Shown piece after piece: positions 5,467-50,225 of a DNA stretch of 64,000 nucleotides (its first letter is position 1; each line of letters opens with the position of its first letter). The DNA comes from Schizochytrium sp. TIO01 (Eukaryota > Protista > Bigyra: Labyrinthulomycetes). Location: the NCBI GenBank assembly GCA_004764695.1, contig SMSO01000036.1, positions 1,922,001 through 1,986,000 of the forward strand, written 5' to 3'. The notes under the pieces are model-generated. The model ran no database searches. It worked only from the letters and a program-made list of their open reading frames with translations, and was not told the DNA's origin. The position numbers and the translations under genes are program-made.

Positions 5467-7770
5467 TTACAATATATCAACTTCGTTTTCTTCGTCATCT
5501 CGAAACCCAGCCTCTTGGTCAGCATGCCACCGCTTTAGAATCGCATCGGCATCAAGTTCGCAAAGGAACTCGTCAATCTCACTTACAATGCTCTGGCTTA
5601 AAGTATTACTACGTTGTTGATGGTTTCTCCGGGAAGAACAAAGAGAATAAGGAGCCGGAGTCTCTAGGATAAAATTATTAGCGCTGATCTTCTGTGCACC
5701 TCGATTGCCATCTTGATTGCTATAACAATTATCTTCAAGCTCACTATCATTTCTCACCAAGGCATCTGATCTGGCTTGAAGAAAGACTAAAGTGTCATTC
5801 TTATTCTCCTCCGTGCTGTTTAAATTCAGGTCGATTTGCTCTTTTGAATCCTTGAAACATGTACTTGAGATCTCGAGGTCTCTTTCAATAGATTCTTCTA
5901 TCGAAACAACATCTTTTAACACCATGTTGGCACCATTTAGACTGGTACTTGTCCATCCTCTCTCAGTTACGTAATAAATGGCGTTATCAGACGGTAAGAT
6001 ATTAATGTAGCCTCTCGCGTGCCTTCTCGTTGGAGGAGGCGCTAATGCGTTAGCAATACTACTAGAACTGCTGCTGTGTCTACGCTTTGTGCGACCAAAT
6101 CGCCTACGCCGTCGATCGAGAAGGAAATTTGAGGACCTCTCCTTCGTTGACCGAGATGTCTTTTCTGGTTTACATGAGTTTACCACTGTTCCTGAGGAGA
6201 TATCAGGGGCATCAACCATAGTGGCATAATGGCGCTGGTCTAAACAGATTTCAGATTCCTCGCCTTCGCTATTAATGCTGCAGGTGTTGCCTTTGTCAAT
6301 TTCATCAGAATCTCTACTCTGCAAATAAGTGCTAGCCGATGATTCTGACGATGATGAGAAAGTCGTGGGGTTTGTCCCACTCCGGTCAATCTCCTGTAAT
6401 GGCATCGGACTTTCATGCAGGCCAACTAGAGCCATAGATCGTAAAAGTGCAGCTTCCTGTGAGGAGGGTACAAGAGCAAGTGCAGCTTCAGCGTCTACAA
6501 GTGCAGACCGGTTGTGATCAGCATTAAATCCAAGGCGCGCTCGGACAACGTAAAGGCTACATTTTGCATCACGAATTTCATTGTGAGCTTGAGAAATGAA
6601 TGACTCACGGGCCTGAACTGTATTTAAAGTGAGCTTATCCCAGTCATTGACTGGAGGCGTGAAAACGGACCAATGCCGCAGAGTCTCTAAAGATGCAGCA
6701 ATTTTCCGGCCAAAAGAGTCGAACATCGCCTCGTCGTCCGTACGCTTTTGCCAGGTTGCCTCTAGCCTCATGCGCAAATTCTGTGCACCACCCACGGCAT
6801 GCCGAACATCTAACAGATATGTTTGGGCCCGAAACAAAGCTTCCGCTGATTCACTGGAGGATTCCAAGAGACTGTGTTCATGTACTGAAACCACTTCGCC
6901 TTCACATCCGGCACTTGATAGCTGCACAGTATATTCGCAGCTCACTTGGTGCGCTAATATCCGAACATTGATGACCAAGCCTTCTCGCACGAGCCATGCA
7001 CCCCGATCAGGCTCATCGATCTGCGATAGAATAACTACTTCATCACCAAGCTTGAAAGTTGCAGCCAGTATAGACCCGCGCCGCTGCTGACAGATTCGCG
7101 CATCGCTGAAGCTGAATCCACGTTTGGCACCAGGGTCGATAATAACTAATGGCTCTAATTGATCTAGACCGCCCTCCTCAGCTTCGGGATCTACGCCATC
7201 GTCCTGAAATGCTAGGTCTGGATCGTACTCGTGGTCTTCTCCAAGTTCTTCGTCGCGGTCTTCCAGAATATCCGCAGAAGTTTGCGAAACCCATGGAGAA
7301 GGACTTTCAAAGTCCTCATTAAGTATGGCACTAATATTCGATGACGTCGAGCTTCCCATTGAGCTGAAGCGGAACGAATCATGTTCTCGTGCCGCACTCA
7401 TCTTGAAGTCTTCCATGTCCATGCTACGTCTTGACTGAGAAATTTCTCCAGTGCTGGTTCTGCGAGTCCGTGCTCGACGTTGCACCTCTCCTGGCCTTGC
7501 ATTTGCAGCTTTAGTTCTTGTCACCAAAGAGTTCAATGAGGATGTTGAACCCGAGGAGTCCCTTTGTGCTGAGTATGATGTCCCTCTCGAGTTTGTCTCG
7601 ACTTCGATGCTGTCTTCTCGTGATCTGTGATCTCGCGAGACTTCTGTACCAGACACTGTGGCACGCCGTGCTCGAGGGGTTTCTGCCAAGTCCAGCTGTG
7701 GCCAGCGTAGAGAGCATGCGTCGTCCCCGCTCCGAAAAAGAGGCCCTCCGCTCGCGGCCATGCTCAGCAT
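5467..7770 (-). CDS. Hypothetical 767-aa protein with a TPR-like segment and long disordered termini
   Basis: Uninterrupted ORF. SLYVVRARLGFNADHNRSALVDAEAALALVPSSQEAALLRSMALVGL fits a TPR pair. Confidence 0.7.
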   Translation of the reverse strand: MLSMAASGGPLFRSGDDACSLRWPQLDLAETPRARRATVSGTEVSRDHRSREDSIEVETNSRGTSYSAQRDSSGSTSSLNSLVTRTKAANARPGEVQRRARTRRTSTGEISQSRRSMDMEDFKMSAAREHDSFRFSSMGSSTSSNISAILNEDFESPSPWVSQTSADILEDRDEELGEDHEYDPDLAFQDDGVDPEAEEGGLDQLEPLVIIDPGAKRGFSFSDARICQQRRGSILAATFKLGDEVVILSQIDEPDRGAWLVREGLVINVRILAHQVSCEYTVQLSSAGCEGEVVSVHEHSLLESSSESAEALFRAQTYLLDVRHAVGGAQNLRMRLEATWQKRTDDEAMFDSFGRKIAASLETLRHWSVFTPPVNDWDKLTLNTVQARESFISQAHNEIRDAKCSLYVVRARLGFNADHNRSALVDAEAALALVPSSQEAALLRSMALVGLHESPMPLQEIDRSGTNPTTFSSSSESSASTYLQSRDSDEIDKGNTCSINSEGEESEICLDQRHYATMVDAPDISSGTVVNSCKPEKTSRSTKERSSNFLLDRRRRRFGRTKRRHSSSSSSIANALAPPPTRRHARGYINILPSDNAIYYVTERGWTSTSLNGANMVLKDVVSIEESIERDLEISSTCFKDSKEQIDLNLNSTEENKNDTLVFLQARSDALVRNDSELEDNCYSNQDGNRGAQKISANNFILETPAPYSLCSSRRNHQQRSNTLSQSIVSEIDEFLCELDADAILKRWHADQEAGFRDDEENEVDIL

Positions 7771-33842: not shown

Positions 33843-35774
33843 TTAAACTTTATGGTGAACGCACCACACCAAGAGCCACTTTAGGTTAGTGACTACATGA
33901 CGTAGAGCCTTGGTCCATGCGTACGCTTTTATAATATCTGCATTGTGAGGAACAGTGCCGGGGCTGTAAAATGGTGCATGCATCAAGTCGACCGACGTTG
34001 AATCGATTTTACACGAATTAGGAGGAATACCACGCTGGCGAGCATTCTCGTCAGGGATTTCAATTGGGTACATTTTCTTACCAATATCTAATGTAACCCC
34101 TGTGCTAGTTTTCATAGCCTCGTCACAGAGGTACTTCAGACAGATAAGAAATGCGCGCATTGCGTGGTTAAAATTTTCAACAGCAGATCCGCCACCAACG
34201 ACCATGAGTCTGTCCAGCATGGAGTTTGACTTGCTAATATCTAAATACAGGGGAAAGACAGTCTTGTTTGCCTTCAAAAAATCAAGTGCCGAAGGGGCCT
34301 TGGTAAGGCTGCGGATTGTGGTTCGAGACCCGATGGGCTCAATTTTGTAACCAGGGAAAGTCTTACCACATGTTTGAGCAATTGCTGCAAGAAGCATAGC
34401 GCTGAGCCCCCAGGCAGTATTGATTTCCTCCCACTCGGGCGGCGCTTTGCTTAGTTCTGGCGCAAGACTCTTACCCATGTGATGTGGCATGCGACCAATT
34501 AGTTGCCCAAGCCGAAAACCATTAATTGTGCCATATTCTCCGTCTCGCCAGATAAAAAACGCATCATTGAAGGCATGTATCGGGCTCAACATCCAAAGAA
34601 CACTCATTGTTCGGGAGATGCGGTTTGTGAGTGAATCTGTCTTTTCGCTCACTACATGCAACAGCTCCTTAAGCGAACCGGACTCTGCCCACACTTTGTT
34701 TTCTTGCGCAGCAATCTTGGCTTCTTCAGCATCAAGCTTGAGTTGTTCTTGCCGAATACATGCTCGTGCGCTTTCCGTATCTTTAATTTCTGCCATGAGA
34801 CGACTTTGCTCACGGAGGAGCATTTCAACCTCAAGCGCCATAGCTTCTTCGTCAATAGGTTCATCCACAGGGGTCTGAGTCTGCTCCCTGAATGCTCGCA
34901 ACTTCAATGTGGTATCAACGCACTCGAGCATCTCGGCATTCATCGCACCTCGTACAAATGCCTTACAATCGTTGCACAACTGAGGAGCACGTTGCTCAAG
35001 TTCAGACTTTTGAACTCCTTGCTGTTCCTGCTCCAACTTTAGCTCTTCAGACCGAGGAACCCGTGGCCGTACAAATGCATCATCAACGTTTTCAAACGCT
35101 TCATCTTCGCTTCCACGGCCAAGTGCCAATGCCAAAAGCTCCCGTTTGCAAGCTGCCGCAAAGTAGTCCAACTCTTCTTTCCTGGCAGTGTTGTGGTTGC
35201 TAGGCGAACCAAACTGCGCCGAGGCCGCCGTTGACGTCGTTGAAGACAAAGTTGACGAGAATAATGCAGCAGCACCAATTCCACCTATGTGCGCATACTG
35301 CGATGTGGATGAATTAAATGATGTTGAAGACGAAGACGATGACGTAGATATTTGCCTGCTCACGTTCCTTGGTGTGGCAAGGTTATCGTCGGCATTGAAT
35401 CTTCCACCATCCATGCCGTCCGGAATTGGTACATGAATAAAGTCATCGACGCGAAGTCGCTTGCCACTGGTCTCCTCCTGAAGCCGTTGAGCGCTGCGGA
35501 GTCGCTCATTCATAGGCGGCGGAGGAAAGACCTTTCGACCGCAATCGCAGCAGGCAATGCTCTCCGCTATTTCCGCATCATCACAAAAAAGCTCAGGCCT
35601 CTCAACCTTCAATCCTCGAGACGATTTCGACTCCATGTCTCGCGAGGCATGTGAAGCTGCAGTCCTGCTTGAACTTGAAGCAGTTGAAGAAGTAGAAGTA
35701 GACCTCAACAGCGATGGTGACGAAGAAGGCGACGATGCTCCCGCCTTTCGGGGCGTCGGAGCAGGAGTAGACAT
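33843..35774 (-). CDS. BECN1: Beclin-1 / ATG6 (VPS30)
   Basis: PQLCNDC, a coiled coil, then BARA motifs GTINGFRLG, WEEINTAWG and WTKALRHVVTNLKWLL. Confidence 0.93.
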   Translation of the reverse strand: MSTPAPTPRKAGASSPSSSPSLLRSTSTSSTASSSSRTAASHASRDMESKSSRGLKVERPELFCDDAEIAESIACCDCGRKVFPPPPMNERLRSAQRLQEETSGKRLRVDDFIHVPIPDGMDGGRFNADDNLATPRNVSRQISTSSSSSSTSFNSSTSQYAHIGGIGAAALFSSTLSSTTSTAASAQFGSPSNHNTARKEELDYFAAACKRELLALALGRGSEDEAFENVDDAFVRPRVPRSEELKLEQEQQGVQKSELEQRAPQLCNDCKAFVRGAMNAEMLECVDTTLKLRAFREQTQTPVDEPIDEEAMALEVEMLLREQSRLMAEIKDTESARACIRQEQLKLDAEEAKIAAQENKVWAESGSLKELLHVVSEKTDSLTNRISRTMSVLWMLSPIHAFNDAFFIWRDGEYGTINGFRLGQLIGRMPHHMGKSLAPELSKAPPEWEEINTAWGLSAMLLAAIAQTCGKTFPGYKIEPIGSRTTIRSLTKAPSALDFLKANKTVFPLYLDISKSNSMLDRLMVVGGGSAVENFNHAMRAFLICLKYLCDEAMKTSTGVTLDIGKKMYPIEIPDENARQRGIPPNSCKIDSTSVDLMHAPFYSPGTVPHNADIIKAYAWTKALRHVVTNLKWLLVWCVHHKV

Positions 35775-36799
35775 CGCCGAAAGTGCAGCGCACCGACGCT
35801 GCTACCCACGTCGAGGCAATATGCTATATAAGTGCCACACAAGTCTGCTGCGACCCGACCAACGTGCCGCGAGTTGGCTTCGTGTTTGGGCGAATGTGGT
35901 AAGTCTCTGACAGCGGATAATTAAAAAATTAACGCCACTGTATGGATAATTCGACCACCTTCTCTTATCCTTTATATATAAAGGTTCCGTGACATTGGCT
36001 TAATTTTTATTTCGGGAGGAATCTGAGCAGGCATCTTAAATCCTGCTTGATGGATTGTTTGTCTATGCTTTTGTCTACAGATAGAGATCGAGAGTCCCAA
36101 AACTTTGTTCTTTTCTTTTCTTTTTCTTCAATTTAGAAGGATAAAAATCTTGAAAGGAAAAAGAATAGCAATTTTTTAATTATAGAGCTCCTATTCCAAA
36201 AGGCCAGGTTGACAGGTTGATATGTAGGCAATCAAAAGTCTTGAGGATATCGATGATCACGTGAGTGGGTGCTTCATTTTTCTACAGATAACTATGCCGC
36301 TAGCGCCTTAATGATGGGATTCAACGCCATGGTGTTCTCCACTTTTGCTGTCACACCACAAAAGAACTCATTTCGGTAGCGAGGAAAAAAATCTACAAAT
36401 CAACTCTGGCAGCATGGTGTTTGTAACTTTATATGTCTGGGTTTACTTTGTTTTAAAAATAGTGCGACTCTGCAAGGTGTTAGAAGGGACGTGCCGCTGA
36501 TTTATATTCACACTGTAATTTTTAATTTGGCTCATTGTCTCCTCTCGAATATACTGACACAAGATATTTCACATTACATAAGCAAGTTAAATACGAGAAG
36601 CTTTATTCTTGACAGAACAACTCTTCTCATTTTCATGTCAGTGATTTATTGTGACAACGGCGGCTTATCTTCTGAATGAAGAACTGTGTAAAATCTTAGG
36701 TTCGCAACCAATTTGAAGAACCATTTATGGCAAAGATCGTTCATACTCTTCCGTATGTTATTAAAGAAACAGACCTTTAAATGGCGATAGATCGGGCAT

Positions 36800-43171: not shown

Positions 43172-45972
43172 TTAGAAGTACGGTTCCACCTTCTCACTGA
43201 TAAAGACCTCTTCGGTCGTGTCCATAACCTCATACTCGTCGTCATCGTCGGGAGAAGCAAGACCAAGGCGAACACGTTCGGCCTGGGCCACGAGGAACTC
43301 CTTGTGACGCTCCTCGCAGAGCTCGCGGAACTCCTGGAGAGCGCTGATCTTCTCCTTGTTGGCAGCGGCCTCGAGGCGCTTGCGGCGGACCTCGTCCTCC
43401 TTGCCGAAGCGAGCCATGTAGCTCTTGAGGCCACGCTCGACCTTCTGGACCTCCTCCTCATCAAGGAGAGTCTTGGGACGCGGGCGCCAGAGGAACTGTG
43501 TATTATCATCATCCAAAGCGGATCAAGCATCAGGAAGTTAGTTAGTTATTGCCATTGTTCAAACCAGAAATAATTCGTCTTATCCAATCCAGCCCTTCCC
43601 CCCATCAAAATAACAATAATCAAACGCTGTTCCTTTCATTTCAGGAGGATGAATGAACCAGTGAATGTTTGCTCAGCCGCACGCGAGATACCATAAGGAT
43701 ATGTGGTGAGCTCCCTACGAAACCCCACTCTCAGACCGCTGCAAATCACGGTGTGGAGTGCCCGGCATGATGCACAAGATTTTAATGTTCGCTGCCTTCT
43801 ATACCCGTGGCAAGTAGCTATCGCGTAAACGATATTTTCTTTGCCAAAGGCTGTTGGGGCTGCGAGTCTCTCTGCCTTAAAAAAAAATAACGGGCCCTTT
43901 CGATGTCTACGCAAGGATGGATAACTAGACGGGCCACTCCAGGATACAATATAATCTACCCCCCTCTCCCCCCGCCCCACCCTCGTTTACAACAGATTGG
44001 ATAAAGACTAAGCTACCGCCATCATCGTCACCACAGGGGCGCTGCTACCACCATCGTCATAGAATCTATTAATCGCAGCAACAGTAGCAACTTGCTCGAC
44101 TGCATACTCAAACGGTTCTATTGTTATAATTGATGGGGGCGAACGAGCGACGTCGAAAGATGCGGAATAGATATTAAAAAAACGTACCTGGTAAAAGTGC
44201 TCCATCTTCTCCTTGCGGAGGGAGTCACCCTGGAAGCTCCACAAGTTGTATCCGTTCTCAAGCTGGTACTTCATGGCCACGGATCCAAACATGGGCTGTG
44301 TGACGATGGTGGCAACCATGCGTCCAGAGGGGTCCCATGAAATTTCGTTGCACATGAAGTGCTCCTCAGCAGCGGTCATAACCTCCTCATCGACATCCCA
44401 GAACTCGATCTCACCAGAGATCGCGCTGCCGGCGAAGATGACGTTGTTACCGGCCGGGGACCAGTGAAGGACGTTGAAGGCCTTGTTAGGGATGTGGTAC
44501 AGAAGCTCGATCTTCTTACCGTCCTTGATGGATCCGGCAGTGTAGAACGAGATGCCGAGGCGGTGCTGGCTCTCGCCGTGGATAATACCGAAGCGCTCGC
44601 GGTTCGGCTCCCAGGAAAAGTGCTCAACCATGTCCTTCATGGAGAGCATCTCGTTGGGAATATCGTTATCGCGCATGCGGAAGAACTCAAAGTTGGTGAA
44701 AGTGGTCTTTCCGCTCTTGGTGTGTCTGAGGACCTGTGCACAGAGGAAGTCTCCAGCGTTCTGCCAGTGCAACTTAACCTCTCTGACATTGAACAAGTTC
44801 TTGGATCTCTTCTCCTCGCGGGTCTCCGGGTCAAGGAGCACAACACGTGCAGGGAAGTTATCTGCCTCGGGGGCCCAGTATGCAATGATGTTGTCGCTCG
44901 AGGACCAGTAGAATTCGCGGATGTTCTTTGCCTTGATGGGCTTCTTCTCCAACAACCTTCCGGTAGAGGCATCAAACACACTGATTCCATCTCTGATCTG
45001 TCTGGCAAAGTACTTATCGTCTGCGCCCCACTTCATCACAGGCCACACGGCGGGCTCTCCGTCAGGCTGCTTGTCAACCTTGAAGCACTTAATCTCCTTT
45101 CCGGTGCGCACGTTCCAGGCAATGAGGGCTCTTGCGTTGGTGTTGTCATCGACTCCGTTCCAGGTCAAGATGTACTTCTCGTTGGGCGAGAAGAGGATAT
45201 GCTGCACACCAGGGTGGGCGAAACGTCTGATGCGCTGGAAGTCGTCACCACCCCAGAGCACAATACCCTGCCTGTGGAATGTGGTCAAGTAGGATCCCTG
45301 CGGCGACCATGCAGTGTACATCTCACACCAGATCTTCCCGTTGCGGCGCTCGCGCTCTCCATCGTAGACAAGAGTGGGCTGTGCGTTCATGACAGCGTTC
45401 TCGCACCAGTAAATCTCCGTGTTGTTACCGTGGCGGAGCAGGTACTGGTCACGGAGTGCAGGGTGCATCATCCATGACTTGAGGTTGGCGGCGGGCTTGT
45501 ACTCAGGGAGCTCAGGCTCCTGGTACTGCTCGGGCCAGGTTGCGAACTTCTCCAGGTCTGTGTACGGGAAGAGCTTGCATGTGTGCTTGGAGTCGAGCTT
45601 AATACCATCAAGGACCTTGATTGCCTGAAGGGCGCTGTCCACGGACTTGTACGCGAGGAAGGCAAATCCAAGAGTCTTGTTGTCAGCATCAGAGGGAAGG
45701 TACAGACCGTCATCCTGGAGATCGCCGACCTTTCCAGTGAAGAGCTTGCGGATAACAGCCTCGAGCTTCTCGTGCTTCTCCTGGGGCACGCCCTTGGGAA
45801 GGTTGTCCACGACCACCACGCAGTCGAAGTTCTTGCTCAGGTCTGCGCCCTCGCCCTCCTCCTCGGCGAAAACGCGGTCAGTGTCAACATCGCCGTCGGA
45901 GATGTAGTCCTCAAGGAGGTCAAGCTCCTCGAGGTCCACATCGAGGTTCGAGTAGTCGAAGTCGATGGGCAT
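43172..45972 (-). CDS. EIF3B: Eukaryotic translation initiation factor 3 subunit B; exons 45972-44188 and 43495-43172
   Basis: RRM (VVVDNLP...TLGFAFLAY) and beta-propeller (WSPQGSYLTTFHRQGIVLWGG, WDPSGR). HFYQ|FLWRPRP is rejoined across a 692-nt GTACGT...ACAG intron. Strong codon bias. Confidence 0.95.
43663..43775 (-). ncRNA. Second intronic snoRNA-like element (class uncertain)
   Basis: Two hairpins (CACUC/GAGUG; GCUCA/UGAGC) and a terminal ACA at 43668-43666. A 10-nt antisense to conserved 18S GCCGCACGCG (43676-43685) runs into CUGA. Confidence 0.35.
43783..43945 (-). ncRNA. Intronic box H/ACA snoRNA predicted to guide 18S rRNA pseudouridylation
   Basis: 3' hairpin: lower stem UCGCAGCC/GGCAGCGA, upper stems GCCU/GGGU and UGGCAA/UUGCCA. 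Pocket strands CCAACA and AUAGAA. ACA (43788-43786) lies 14 nt from the pocket top. The pocket matches conserved 18S UUCUAU-UU-UGUUGG. A 5' hairpin (GGCCC/GGGCC, GUCUA/UAGAC) is present; the H box is imperfect. Confidence 0.7.
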
Positions 45973-47819: not shown

Positions 47820-50225
47820 TCATGAAATACTCATTGAAGTGATCGCATGGAAAAGTGCAGGAATACTGTGCGATTTGATGGCTTTACGACAAGCTGTAAC
47901 AACAGCCTTCTGAGGGGGGCCAACCCGAACAAGCGATGCGCGTTGTATTATCTGGTTGACCTCACGAAGAGCGGCAAGCAATTCTGCTTGATTGTTTGAG
48001 CGTTTTGTGTATTCACCGATGAGCTGCATATTCACAGCGGTAAGATCAGAGTAAACTGCAGTTAAATTCGTAACATCCTGTAAGACCCGGGCATCTTCTG
48101 CACGAACAATTCCATTCTTAATGTAGGTTGATTCATCCGCCATTTCTGCGTGTAATCTCTGCCGTAAGCTCTGTAGTTCATCGACGCGCTGCATTAGGGC
48201 TTCAAGCCGATGCAACACTGATGGAAAATCTAGACAAGCCTCAACTTGTTTCACCTCAAGCAACGAGGCAATCGCTTGTACAAATTCTGCAACAATGTCA
48301 AGTGTGCTTCCCTCCACTTCATTCGTACGCCTGTTTCGTCCTCAGCAGCATGAATTGAGATTAAACTTCCATCATTTAGGTGGAAGAAGTGCATCTCCAA
48401 AGATCCAGATTTGCTCGGCTTACACTGGTTCGTGACTGCTTCGTGAGGAAACAGAGAGCGCAGGATATCCTCAACCGCCGCTAGGTTCACCCGTTTCAAA
48501 ATAAATGCAGCGTTGCCAATGTCCTCGTTCGGAGATTTTGTAGGAGCAAACATAGAAAAGCGGCACATAGGCTGCTCGCATTCAAAGATATGTAAATACT
48601 CCGATGAACCTCGAGCCGCAACTAGCGCCTGAACACGAAGTGTAGTAGGGATATTTTTCAAAGGACACAATGGCACCACCAAACGGCCATTTGATCCCGA
48701 GTCAGTAGACGCCCCAATGACACATTCTCCATCAAAAAGGCCAGCATCGAGAGAGAAAACGACCACATTCCTTACAACGCACCCCTCACTGACTTTTACG
48801 TTCAGGTGAAGACACTTTTCCTTTGCGTTTTGTATGAGCTCCACATCAACATGCGTGTCGTCAGGAATAGCACCAACCGCATCATCGATACTACCACTTT
48901 TTGCATTAGTAAGGTTCTTTTCCAATGAACGCAGCTCCATAGTCTTCAGCGTAAGCTGTTCTTGGAGCATAGCTAACTCAGCATTGTGGGGACCCACTTT
49001 GTTGTTTAAATTGCGTAGAGAAACCTGTGGTTTATCCTGGGCCAAAGCGTGCTCTGGAAGCAGTGCATCTCCTTTATCTTGCTCAGCTATATTAGCACCC
49101 TGCAACGCACGCAAGATATCGTCTCCAGAATTCTCATCCTTCATTAAAGTATCCAGGGGGCCAAAATCCGCTACGTTTTCTCCCATACTGGATCCTGCAA
49201 CAAACTCGTGCTTAGAGCCATCATATCCCCTCACCTCTCCATCTAAGGTGCAACAAATGAGTTCGTCTGCGCCAGTTCCTCGGTAGTCCCCAGTAAGAAG
49301 TGCACTCACTGAGGATGCAAGGGTTTCACGATACAGCACTTGTCCATCTTCATTCCGGCGAGCTTCAAGCTTACCATTGGACCACCCAGAAATGACCTCG
49401 TCCACTCCATCCCCATCCAAATCGTAAGCTGCCATAGTTTGTACGGTGTCCTTGGCTTTTACCCGCCATACGCGTATTTTCCCATCATAAACACCAATCG
49501 TGCCATTTGAGAGTCCGTATGCAAATCGAGACGTGAGATTTGAGTCAGTTGAGCCAGAAGAAGTTCGAACAGGGCATAGATGAGAAATACTTTCGGTCTC
49601 TGTAACCTCAAAAAGACTTTGTTCATTCTGAAAAGCTCGAATTTCAAAATCATCGCTTCCTACAATCAACTCGTCTTTACCATCACGATCAACATCAGCA
49701 AACATCATGGATGTTGCGCTACCACCGACAACAGTCCAGAACTGCTCTGTACCAGACTGGTCAAAGCCCTGCAGAGAGCAATCTCCTCCAACAAACACCA
49801 TGTTTTGTTTGCGGCCGTGCAGACAACCAAACTGCATTGACCTGACTCCTTCTGGGACGTCAATATAAAATTTATCTGAATTGTTGTGTACATCGTAGGC
49901 CAAAAGGCTACTGGTTGAGCCCACTAGCAAAGTATCCCGATTTTCTCCCTCGAAGCGACCGCAACGAAGTGCGCTGATTTGGCGGTTTAAGTTCAGGTAC
50001 CTTGCATTCGTCTGACTTGTCTCGGTGCTTTTCGGGCCTTGTAGAAGAACCCGATTCCCGCTTGTGGCAATCGCAAGGGTTCGCGGAGCTCGAGATCCTA
50101 TACTACTCTCATCTTCACCAGCGCGTCCGTTTGGCTTGCTGCCATGTTCATCGAATTGCCCAAGGCAAACAAGCCCCGGGGTGAATCTGCGTGTTCAACG
50201 CTGTGCGAAAGCTTGGTGCTAGCAT
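47820..50225 (-). pseudogene. BBS2: Bardet-Biedl syndrome 2 (BBSome) gene interrupted by two 1-nt frameshifts (pseudogene or assembly error)
   Basis: Motifs LLAYDVHNNSD, VGGDCSLQGFD, ELIVGSDDFEIR, FAYGLSNGTIGVY and C-terminal RAEDAR...N.QLIGEYTKRSNN. ATG 50225 (MLAPSF). +1 shift in CCCCGGGG 50174-50181; -1 shift at ~48320. Confidence 0.85.

What the first reader, a model, noticed from the sequence alone, without database searches (positions are those of the whole stretch)
43783..43945. Unannotated H/ACA guide snoRNA in the eIF3b intron with an exact 18S target
Seen: the 692-nt eIF3b intron is far longer than the other introns here (~160-315 nt). It holds a hairpin-pocket-ACA unit whose pocket strands reverse-complement to UUCUAU and UGUUGG, with ACA 14 nt from the pocket top. 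Known: eukaryotic 18S contains GGUUCUAUUUUGUUGG, giving a perfect UUCUAU-[Psi]U-UGUUGG fit. From memory, this corresponds to a human 18S site near Psi866 whose guides (ACA19/ACA28) lie in introns of translation-factor genes. Inference: a conserved guide hosted in a translation-initiation gene in this protist.
Basis: partly seen in the sequence, partly recalled or inferred. Interest (0 to 1): 0.75.

Follow-up and report, generated by a model that had tools for sequence, protein, structure and literature searches.

The report
Intronic H/ACA guide RNA, thraustochytrid eIF3b
An intron of a translation-factor gene in a marine protist holds a hairpin, kept in the same intron of distant relatives, that is likely part of an uncatalogued small guide RNA of a well-known class, predicted to convert one uridine of 18S ribosomal RNA to pseudouridine at a site other than the one first proposed.

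Summary
The guide hairpin is real, but the target name is wrong and the extent probably is too. The 692-nt intron is spliced in 3 of 3 RNA-type runs that cover it. The CCAACA/AUAGAA pocket lies on the minus strand, 14 nt before ACAUUA. Its 12-bp fit to 18S alone is weak (49/1000 shuffles). Conservation is the strong evidence. The same intron of a 50%-identity relative carries the pocket (4/20000 shuffles) with four two-sided stem changes, and a third ortholog's read-through peptide is compatible (2/2000). A closer relative matches only loosely, and another lacks the intron. The target uridine corresponds to yeast 18S U831, 23 nt downstream of human Psi866/yeast 808, so this is not SNORA28 or SNORA19. 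ACAUUA is more likely box H, with a second hairpin and ACA downstream (43865-43663, about 203 nt). The organism's own 18S could not be read, so "exact target" is unverified; 10-12 bp is expected. No Rfam family matches. The scan has noted other intronic snoRNAs elsewhere, not this one. Verdict: a new member of a known class.

The parts
44188..45972 (-). eIF3b coding exon 1 (host gene)
   Evidence: Spliced frame gives 702 aa, identical to P0121 and 617/702 identical to Hondaea fermentalgiana eIF3b; Pfam eIF2A and RRM_1
43496..44187 (-). 692-nt host intron, GT..AG
   Evidence: Joint 43495/44188 in RNA-type contigs of 3 studies; same intron position in L014, L017 and several read-through gene calls
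43172..43495 (-). eIF3b coding exon 2 with TAA stop
43663..43865 (-). Predicted whole box H/ACA RNA, about 203 nt (best model; ends inferred)
   Evidence: Folding z -3.4, 0/200 shuffles; order hairpin-H-hairpin-box as in L017
43789..43865 (-). Guide hairpin with 6x6 pocket (likely the 5' hairpin)
   Evidence: z -4.7; four two-sided stem changes against L017; no strain substitution
43852..43857 (-). 5' pocket strand CCAACA, pairs with 18S UGUUGG (yeast 833-838)
   Evidence: identical in L017
43797..43802 (-). 3' pocket strand AUAGAA, pairs with 18S UUCUAU (yeast 825-830)
   Evidence: AUAGAC in L017
43783..43788 (-).
   Evidence: 14 nt from pocket top; AUAUUA at 13 nt in L017; ANANNA-compatible at 14 nt in P0008
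43746..43782 (-). Hinge or insert of 37 nt (pairs into the 3' domain in an alternative fold)
   Evidence: one strain substitution at 43761
43669..43745 (-). Candidate 3' hairpin; carries UCUGA (43735-43731) like the CCUCUGA of L017's second hairpin; no target established
   Evidence: z -2.5, 3/200 shuffles; no strain substitution
43666..43668 (-). Candidate terminal ACA box; predicted 3' end at 43663, 167 nt from the 3' splice site
43893..43935 (-).
   Evidence: z +0.1; no ANANNA between it and the guide hairpin
43537..43545 (-). Tandem CTAAC branch-point-like motifs

Best explanation
The eIF3b intron holds a conserved pocket hairpin that is likely the 5' half of a box H/ACA snoRNA, predicted to guide pseudouridylation of the 18S uridine equivalent to yeast U831. 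Shown: the intron is spliced; the hairpin and pocket are present and recur in the same intron of a distant relative with two-sided stem changes; the pocket is complementary to a conserved 18S stretch in expansion segment 6. Inferred from how the class works: the RNA is co-transcribed with eIF3b, bound by Cbf5/dyskerin, Nop10, Nhp2 and Gar1 at box H (ACAUUA) and at the ACA at 43668, trimmed out of the debranched lariat to about 203 nt, and pairs 10-12 bp on both sides of an unpaired UU so that the first unpaired U is isomerised. The second hairpin completes the particle. In L017 it fits a second 18S site (yeast 894); in the window its target is open. My odds: real H/ACA RNA about 0.9; target 831 about 0.8; 5'-hairpin order about 0.7.
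For: Splice joint. L017, 50% protein identity, has CCAACA..AUAGA plus box in the same intron: 4/20000 shuffles. Stem pairs differ on both sides at four places: U-A/G-C, U-G/G-U, G-C/C-G, A-U/U-A. L017's AUAGAC fits the GUCUAU variant of 18S seen in a stramenopile piece (L062). L017 has only about 20 nt between a U-rich tract and this hairpin, then AUAUUA, a second hairpin whose pocket fits UUAAU[UG]UCAGAGG, and AAA 14 nt after that pocket. P0008's read-through peptide allows pocket, ANANNA at 14 nt, a 5-bp upper stem and CCUCUGA downstream: 2/2000 shuffles. 0 of 8 intron substitutions in one strain fall in the two hairpins (p 0.11, not significant). 8 bp suffice for modification (PMC6049503). 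Numbering agrees with rm1 starting at 801 (PMC9176245).
Against: No small RNA and no pseudouridine observed: the RNA runs are contigs that show the whole intron at flat low depth, about 3-6% of exon depth. The organism's 18S was not read; one Thraustochytriaceae sequence pairs 10 of 12. The target match alone is reached by 49/1000 shuffles. L014, a closer relative (65%), matches only loosely (CCAA..UAGA; 500/20000 and 63/20000 shuffles) and has that hairpin in the 3' position. L016 (64%) has no intron here. Read-through tails P0012 and P0015 (56 and 49 aa) were negative. The hinge is long (37 nt), the window's second hairpin has no convincing target, and it has two competing folds. L017's pocket-to-box distance is 13 nt. 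The patterns were partly set after seeing the data: the last A of AUAGAA was dropped after L017, and P0008 was noticed by eye before the test.
Confidence: 0.62

Rival explanations
1. Same guide and target, but the pocket hairpin is the 3' hairpin and the RNA ends 3 nt after ACA at 43783, starting near 43945.
For: ACA lies 14 nt from the pocket. In L014 the CCAA/UAGA hairpin is the 3' one and ends in AUA. The upstream hairpin shares UCUA and CGAA with L014's 5' hairpin (by eye).
Against: No ANANNA between the two hairpins. Upstream hairpin z +0.1, whole span z -1.2. Three strain substitutions in the linker. L017 and P0008 show the opposite order.
Confidence: 0.13
2. The pocket hairpin works as a single-hairpin guide of about 85 nt ending after ACA, and the intron holds separate single-hairpin RNAs.
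For: Each hairpin in L017, L014 and the window is followed by an A-N-A triplet. Hairpin order differs between L014 and L017, and the window's hinge is long.
Against: The full ANANNA is kept after this hairpin in the window and L017 and is compatible in P0008. L017 and L014 have tight two-hairpin spacing. Single-hairpin guides are known from trypanosomes, Euglena and archaea (recalled), not from stramenopiles in my searches.
Confidence: 0.07
3. It is an H/ACA RNA that binds expansion segment 6 as a folding chaperone, like snR30/U17, or binds another RNA, and leaves U831 unmodified.
For: The site lies between snR30's rm1 (801-806) and rm2 (836-841) and overlaps rm2 by 3 nt (PMC9176245). No pseudouridine is listed there in human, and a search for Psi831-835 with 18S found 0 papers. 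Predicted guides can be inactive on endogenous rRNA.
Against: [quoted passage not shown] No complement of rm2 lies in the intron. No Rfam hit to snR30 or SNORA73.
Confidence: 0.1
4. The hairpin is a chance or decayed structure, or a cis-element of the pre-mRNA, and no snoRNA is made in this species.
For: Target match alone p about 0.05. No Rfam family. Only two orthologous introns could be read as DNA, and one matches loosely. The strict pattern also occurs once by chance inside a coding ORF near 5930.
Against: 4/20000 and 2/2000 conservation tests and two-sided stem changes. What is conserved is the unpaired, rRNA-complementary strands, not the stems.
Confidence: 0.08

Closest known systems
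Box H/ACA pseudouridylation guide snoRNAs (class; PMC6049503)
   Same: Hairpin with internal pocket, bipartite pairing of 10-12 bp around an unpaired UN, box 14 nt from the pocket, predicted hairpin-H-hairpin-ACA order.
   Different: No Rfam 15 family matches at gathering score or down to E 10; the hinge is long; the second pocket has no target in this species.
SNORA28 (ACA28) and SNORA19 (ACA19), vertebrate
   Same: H/ACA RNAs linked to 18S expansion segment 6; hosts in translation-factor genes (EIF5, EIF3A; recalled, not found in the papers read).
   Different: SNORA28 guides 815 and 866 (yeast 759 and 808); SNORA19 was ruled out for 866. This pocket aims 23 nt downstream, at yeast 831. No sequence match.
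snR30/U17 (SNORA73)
   Same: H/ACA RNA that pairs in the same part of ES6; its rm2 site overlaps this target by 3 nt.
   Different: snR30 uses m1/m2 motifs in inverse orientation and does not modify; this pocket has the modifying orientation and other sequences.
[quoted passage not shown]
   Same: Translation genes are enriched as hosts in human (3.79-fold).
   Different: Those data are vertebrate or pan-eukaryote surveys. Host location is reported as unstable across eukaryotes, so the eIF3 host is no sign of descent from SNORA19.

Membership tests
Box H/ACA guide snoRNA | Hairpin with lower stem, internal pocket and upper stem | tested here: met
   covariation with L017
Box H/ACA guide snoRNA | Box H (ANANNA) or ACA 14-16 nt from the pocket top | tested here: met
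   ACAUUA at 14 nt; 13 nt in L017; 14 nt compatible in P0008
Box H/ACA guide snoRNA | Bipartite pairing of at least 8 bp to an rRNA around an unpaired UN | tested here: met
   10-12 bp against other eukaryotes' 18S; the organism's own 18S was not read
Box H/ACA guide snoRNA | Two hairpins, hinge with box H, terminal ACA 3 nt from the end | tested here: inconclusive
   Candidate second hairpin and ACA at 43668, but long hinge and two folds; clear in L017 and L014
Box H/ACA guide snoRNA | Stable small RNA bound by Cbf5/dyskerin, Nop10, Nhp2, Gar1 | not testable with these tools
   Only contigs were served; they cannot show ends or levels
Box H/ACA guide snoRNA | Pseudouridine at the predicted uridine | not testable with these tools
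   Needs CMC, BID-seq or direct RNA mapping
SNORA28 / SNORA19 | Pocket aimed at 18S 866 or 815 (yeast 808 or 759) | tested here: not met
   Target is yeast 831
SNORA28 / SNORA19 | Match to the Rfam model | tested here: not met
   No hit down to E 10
snR30 / U17 | m1 and m2 motifs in the 3' hairpin, pairing to 801-806 and 836-841 | tested here: not met
   One 6-nt complement of 801-806 near the intron's 5' end, none of 836-841

The most novel reading that the evidence does not exclude
An undescribed, labyrinthulomycete-wide H/ACA family has stayed in one eIF3b intron across deep divergence while swapping the order of its hairpins and retuning its second pocket (yeast 894 in L017, 889 in L014). 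It places a pseudouridine not listed for human at the 831-equivalent in ES6, on a stretch that overlaps the rm2 site of the essential snR30/U17 chaperone, so the two RNAs would have to bind in turn during 40S assembly.
Probability: 0.3. Interest if true: 0.5.

Novelty: new member of a known kind. Interest (0 to 1): 0.33.

Why it matters
snoRNAs of labyrinthulomycetes appear undescribed: none of the top 15 listed papers in either of two searches paired snoRNA with these taxa. This RNA has no Rfam family. It predicts a specific 18S pseudouridine in an expansion segment, at a site not in the human list, which is directly testable in a culturable, transformable, commercially used protist. It also gives a case of long host-intron retention with possible hairpin reshuffling. 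The mechanism itself is the textbook one.

Tried and rejected
Rfam: one irrelevant gathering hit in the window (Sphinx_2 at 35651-35805); only chance-level hits in the intron and in the orthologous introns, including SNORA20 at E 1.6 on L014. No own genome is held, and the metagenome loci have no genome record. The 18S motif in viral contigs gave 13 of 13 chance matches. The organism's own 18S could not be obtained: the read-laying run gave nothing; a full-text search found 0 papers; 5 of 6 papers' supplements held no usable sequence (4 of 16 files of the last were not searched), and the sixth gave one unnamed Thraustochytriaceae row. A short C-terminal protein search found no further long read-through (5 hits). 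Two ab initio intron scans were too noisy to measure other introns. MAFFT put the lower stems out of register, so no covariance model was built. Targets for the upstream and downstream hairpins came out only at chance level or with broken geometry. Flat intron depth in contigs says nothing for or against a small RNA. The taxon id in the P0121 header resolves to a fungus and was set aside. A link between the host protein and the target region (eIF3b/g near ES6SA, PMC6887119) was considered; nothing places the target in that helix, so it is not claimed.

Full report
Host gene and organism. The finding lies in the single coding intron of a minus-strand eIF3b gene. Joining 45972-44188 to 43495-43172 gives 702 aa, identical to P0121 (an MMETSP0958 protein) and 617/702 identical to Hondaea fermentalgiana eIF3b. 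The organism is therefore a thraustochytrid; that MMETSP0958 is Aurantiochytrium limacinum is recalled, and the taxon id in its header resolves to a fungus. Contigs from 3 RNA-type runs of 3 studies join 43495 to 44188, skipping 692 nt with GT..AG ends; the fourth run laid covered only exon. The same runs cover the whole intron at 3-6% of exon depth. Contigs cannot show a small RNA.

The observation. On the minus strand the hairpin 43865-43789 has CCAACA on the 5' side and AUAGAA on the 3' side of a 6x6 loop, and ACA starts 14 nt after the pocket top. The orientation is right for an H/ACA guide. The hairpin folds better than 200 of 200 shuffles (ends chosen by eye). Rfam has no family for it. 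To weigh the target match I scanned for the best pocket against 1262 uridines of fungal 18S, 5.8S and LSU. The real intron's best pocket is this one (12 Watson-Crick pairs), but 49 of 1000 shuffled introns reach 12 or more. The match alone is suggestive, not more.

Conservation. Ten metagenome loci encode relatives. Two carry an intron at the same codon (L014, 195 nt; L017, 229 nt), one ends at the boundary (L015), and seven show no intron there, among them L016 on a 7.1-kb genomic contig. L017 (50% protein identity) has CCAACA and AUAGAC on the two sides of a pocket, followed by AUAUUA; 4 of 20000 shuffles hold that pattern (I dropped the last A after seeing L017). Anchored on the pocket, four stem pairs differ on both sides (aligned by hand, since MAFFT missed the register). 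L014 (65%) is a clean two-hairpin H/ACA shape with AGAUAA between the hairpins and AUA at the end, but its 3' hairpin has only CCAA and UAGA (500 and 63 of 20000 shuffles for two loose patterns) with an uneven pocket. A further ortholog, P0008 (62%), is a gene call that reads through the intron. Its peptide is codon-compatible with both pocket strands, a 5-bp upper stem, ANANNA at 14 nt and CCUCUGA 24 nt later; 2 of 2000 shuffled peptides reach this level. This is indirect, and I noticed it by eye first. Of 6 read-through tails tested only P0008 was positive; two are the L014 and L017 genes, one is the window's species and stops before the hairpin, and two short ones were negative.

The target. 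A scan of bacterial genome contigs returned 44 loci, giving 41 pieces of contaminating eukaryotic 18S with the motif. 32 of 41 read UU before CUAU, which gives 12 bp; the others give 10 or 11. One paper states that human 866 equals yeast 808 and that SNORA28's other target is yeast 759 (10.1101/2021.07.15.452550, passages; PMC6984369, passages). Counting from 759 in two Saccharomyces-like pieces puts 808 at the second U of GGAAUAAU and the four-U run at 830-833; rm1 starting at 801 agrees (PMC9176245, passages). The pocket leaves the second and third U unpaired, so the target is U831, about human 888-889 by offset. The human table lists 863, 866, Gm867, 897 and 918, nothing in between (PMC6182160, Table 1 passages). 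That budding yeast has no Psi831 is recalled. A search for Psi831-835 with 18S found 0 papers and one for Psi889 found no occurrence in the listed papers. The organism's own 18S was not read. The one Thraustochytriaceae V4 sequence seen (PMC8618269, supplement row) reads GCUAU and pairs 10 of 12, above the 8-bp minimum (PMC6049503, abstract and passages). Supplements of bioRxiv preprints were closed and might hold such sequences.

Extent of the RNA. But ACAUUA fits ANANNA, no ANANNA lies between the upstream hairpin and the guide hairpin, the upstream hairpin is not more stable than shuffles, and three of eight strain substitutions in the intron fall in the linker. In L017 there is no room for an upstream hairpin, and a second hairpin follows the box; its pocket CCUCUGA/AUUAA fits UUAAU[UG]UCAGAGG (yeast 894), with AAA 14 nt after it. 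The window has a hairpin at 43745-43669 with UCUGA on its 5' side, ending in ACA at 43668. Against this: the hinge is 37 nt, the second hairpin has two folds and no convincing target, and L014 has the opposite order. L014's 5' hairpin has an 8-nt complement of AUUCGUAU exactly 14 nt before its H box (yeast 889), in the same 18S helix as L017's second target, but its other strand does not fit the 18S pieces on hand.

Mechanism. By the established biology of the class, the RNA would be co-transcribed with eIF3b, assembled with Cbf5, Nop10, Nhp2 and Gar1, released from the lariat and trimmed, and would then isomerise the first unpaired U. None of these steps was observed. The target lies in ES6 between the two snR30 binding sites and overlaps rm2 by 3 nt, so the two RNAs could not pair there fully at once. 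The geometry is the modifying one, not snR30's inverse one.

Comparison and novelty. It works like any box H/ACA guide and meets the sequence-level tests of the class. It fails membership in SNORA28, SNORA19 and snR30/U17. Translation genes are common hosts (PMC13736004, passages), and host location is mobile across eukaryotes (PMC3511168, abstract and a term search). Searches for snoRNA with Labyrinthulomycetes, with thraustochytrid genera and with other stramenopiles listed no paper on such RNAs (listings only). The scan's own index holds no note on this place or sequence, but 65 notes with the words snoRNA, intron, guide and 18S in other genomes, the 8 shown being C/D-type. Verdict: a real feature and very probably an uncatalogued H/ACA snoRNA, with corrected target and probably corrected ends; a new member of a known kind, interest 0.33.

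Noticed in passing
L017:2282-2416: Complete two-hairpin H/ACA candidate in the orthologous intron; pockets fit 18S yeast-831 and yeast-894 equivalents; ends in AAA instead of ACA.
   Followed up: yes
L014:4084-4211: Two-hairpin H/ACA candidate (box AGAUAA, terminal AUA); the 5' hairpin has an 8-nt complement of 18S AUUCGUAU 14 nt before the H box; weak SNORA20 hit at E 1.6.
   Followed up: partly
L016:2761-4860: An eIF3b ortholog (64% identity) on a genomic contig lacks the intron, so the guide is lost or lies elsewhere in that lineage.
   Followed up: no
window 44122-44114 (minus strand): A second, 9-nt complement of the same 18S stretch (yeast 823-831) near the intron's 5' end, with no hairpin or box; about 0.1 expected by chance (my estimate); not seen in L014 or L017.
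   Followed up: partly
window 43906-43897 (minus strand): 10-nt complement of a conserved 18S stretch near position 313-322 (fungal piece L032) in the upstream hairpin, without a D box or H box at the right distance.
   Followed up: partly
window 47820-50194 (minus strand): BBS2 (BBSome subunit 2) gene in two ORFs, with a candidate 158-nt intron at 48328-48171.
   Followed up: partly
window 35651-35805 (minus strand): Rfam Sphinx_2 hit above gathering score inside a long ORF; a structure-less model, probably spurious.
   Followed up: no
L024-L067: About 40 of 44 bacterial or archaeal genome contigs returned by the 18S motif are eukaryotic rDNA contamination, including whole fungal rDNA units (L045).
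   Followed up: partly
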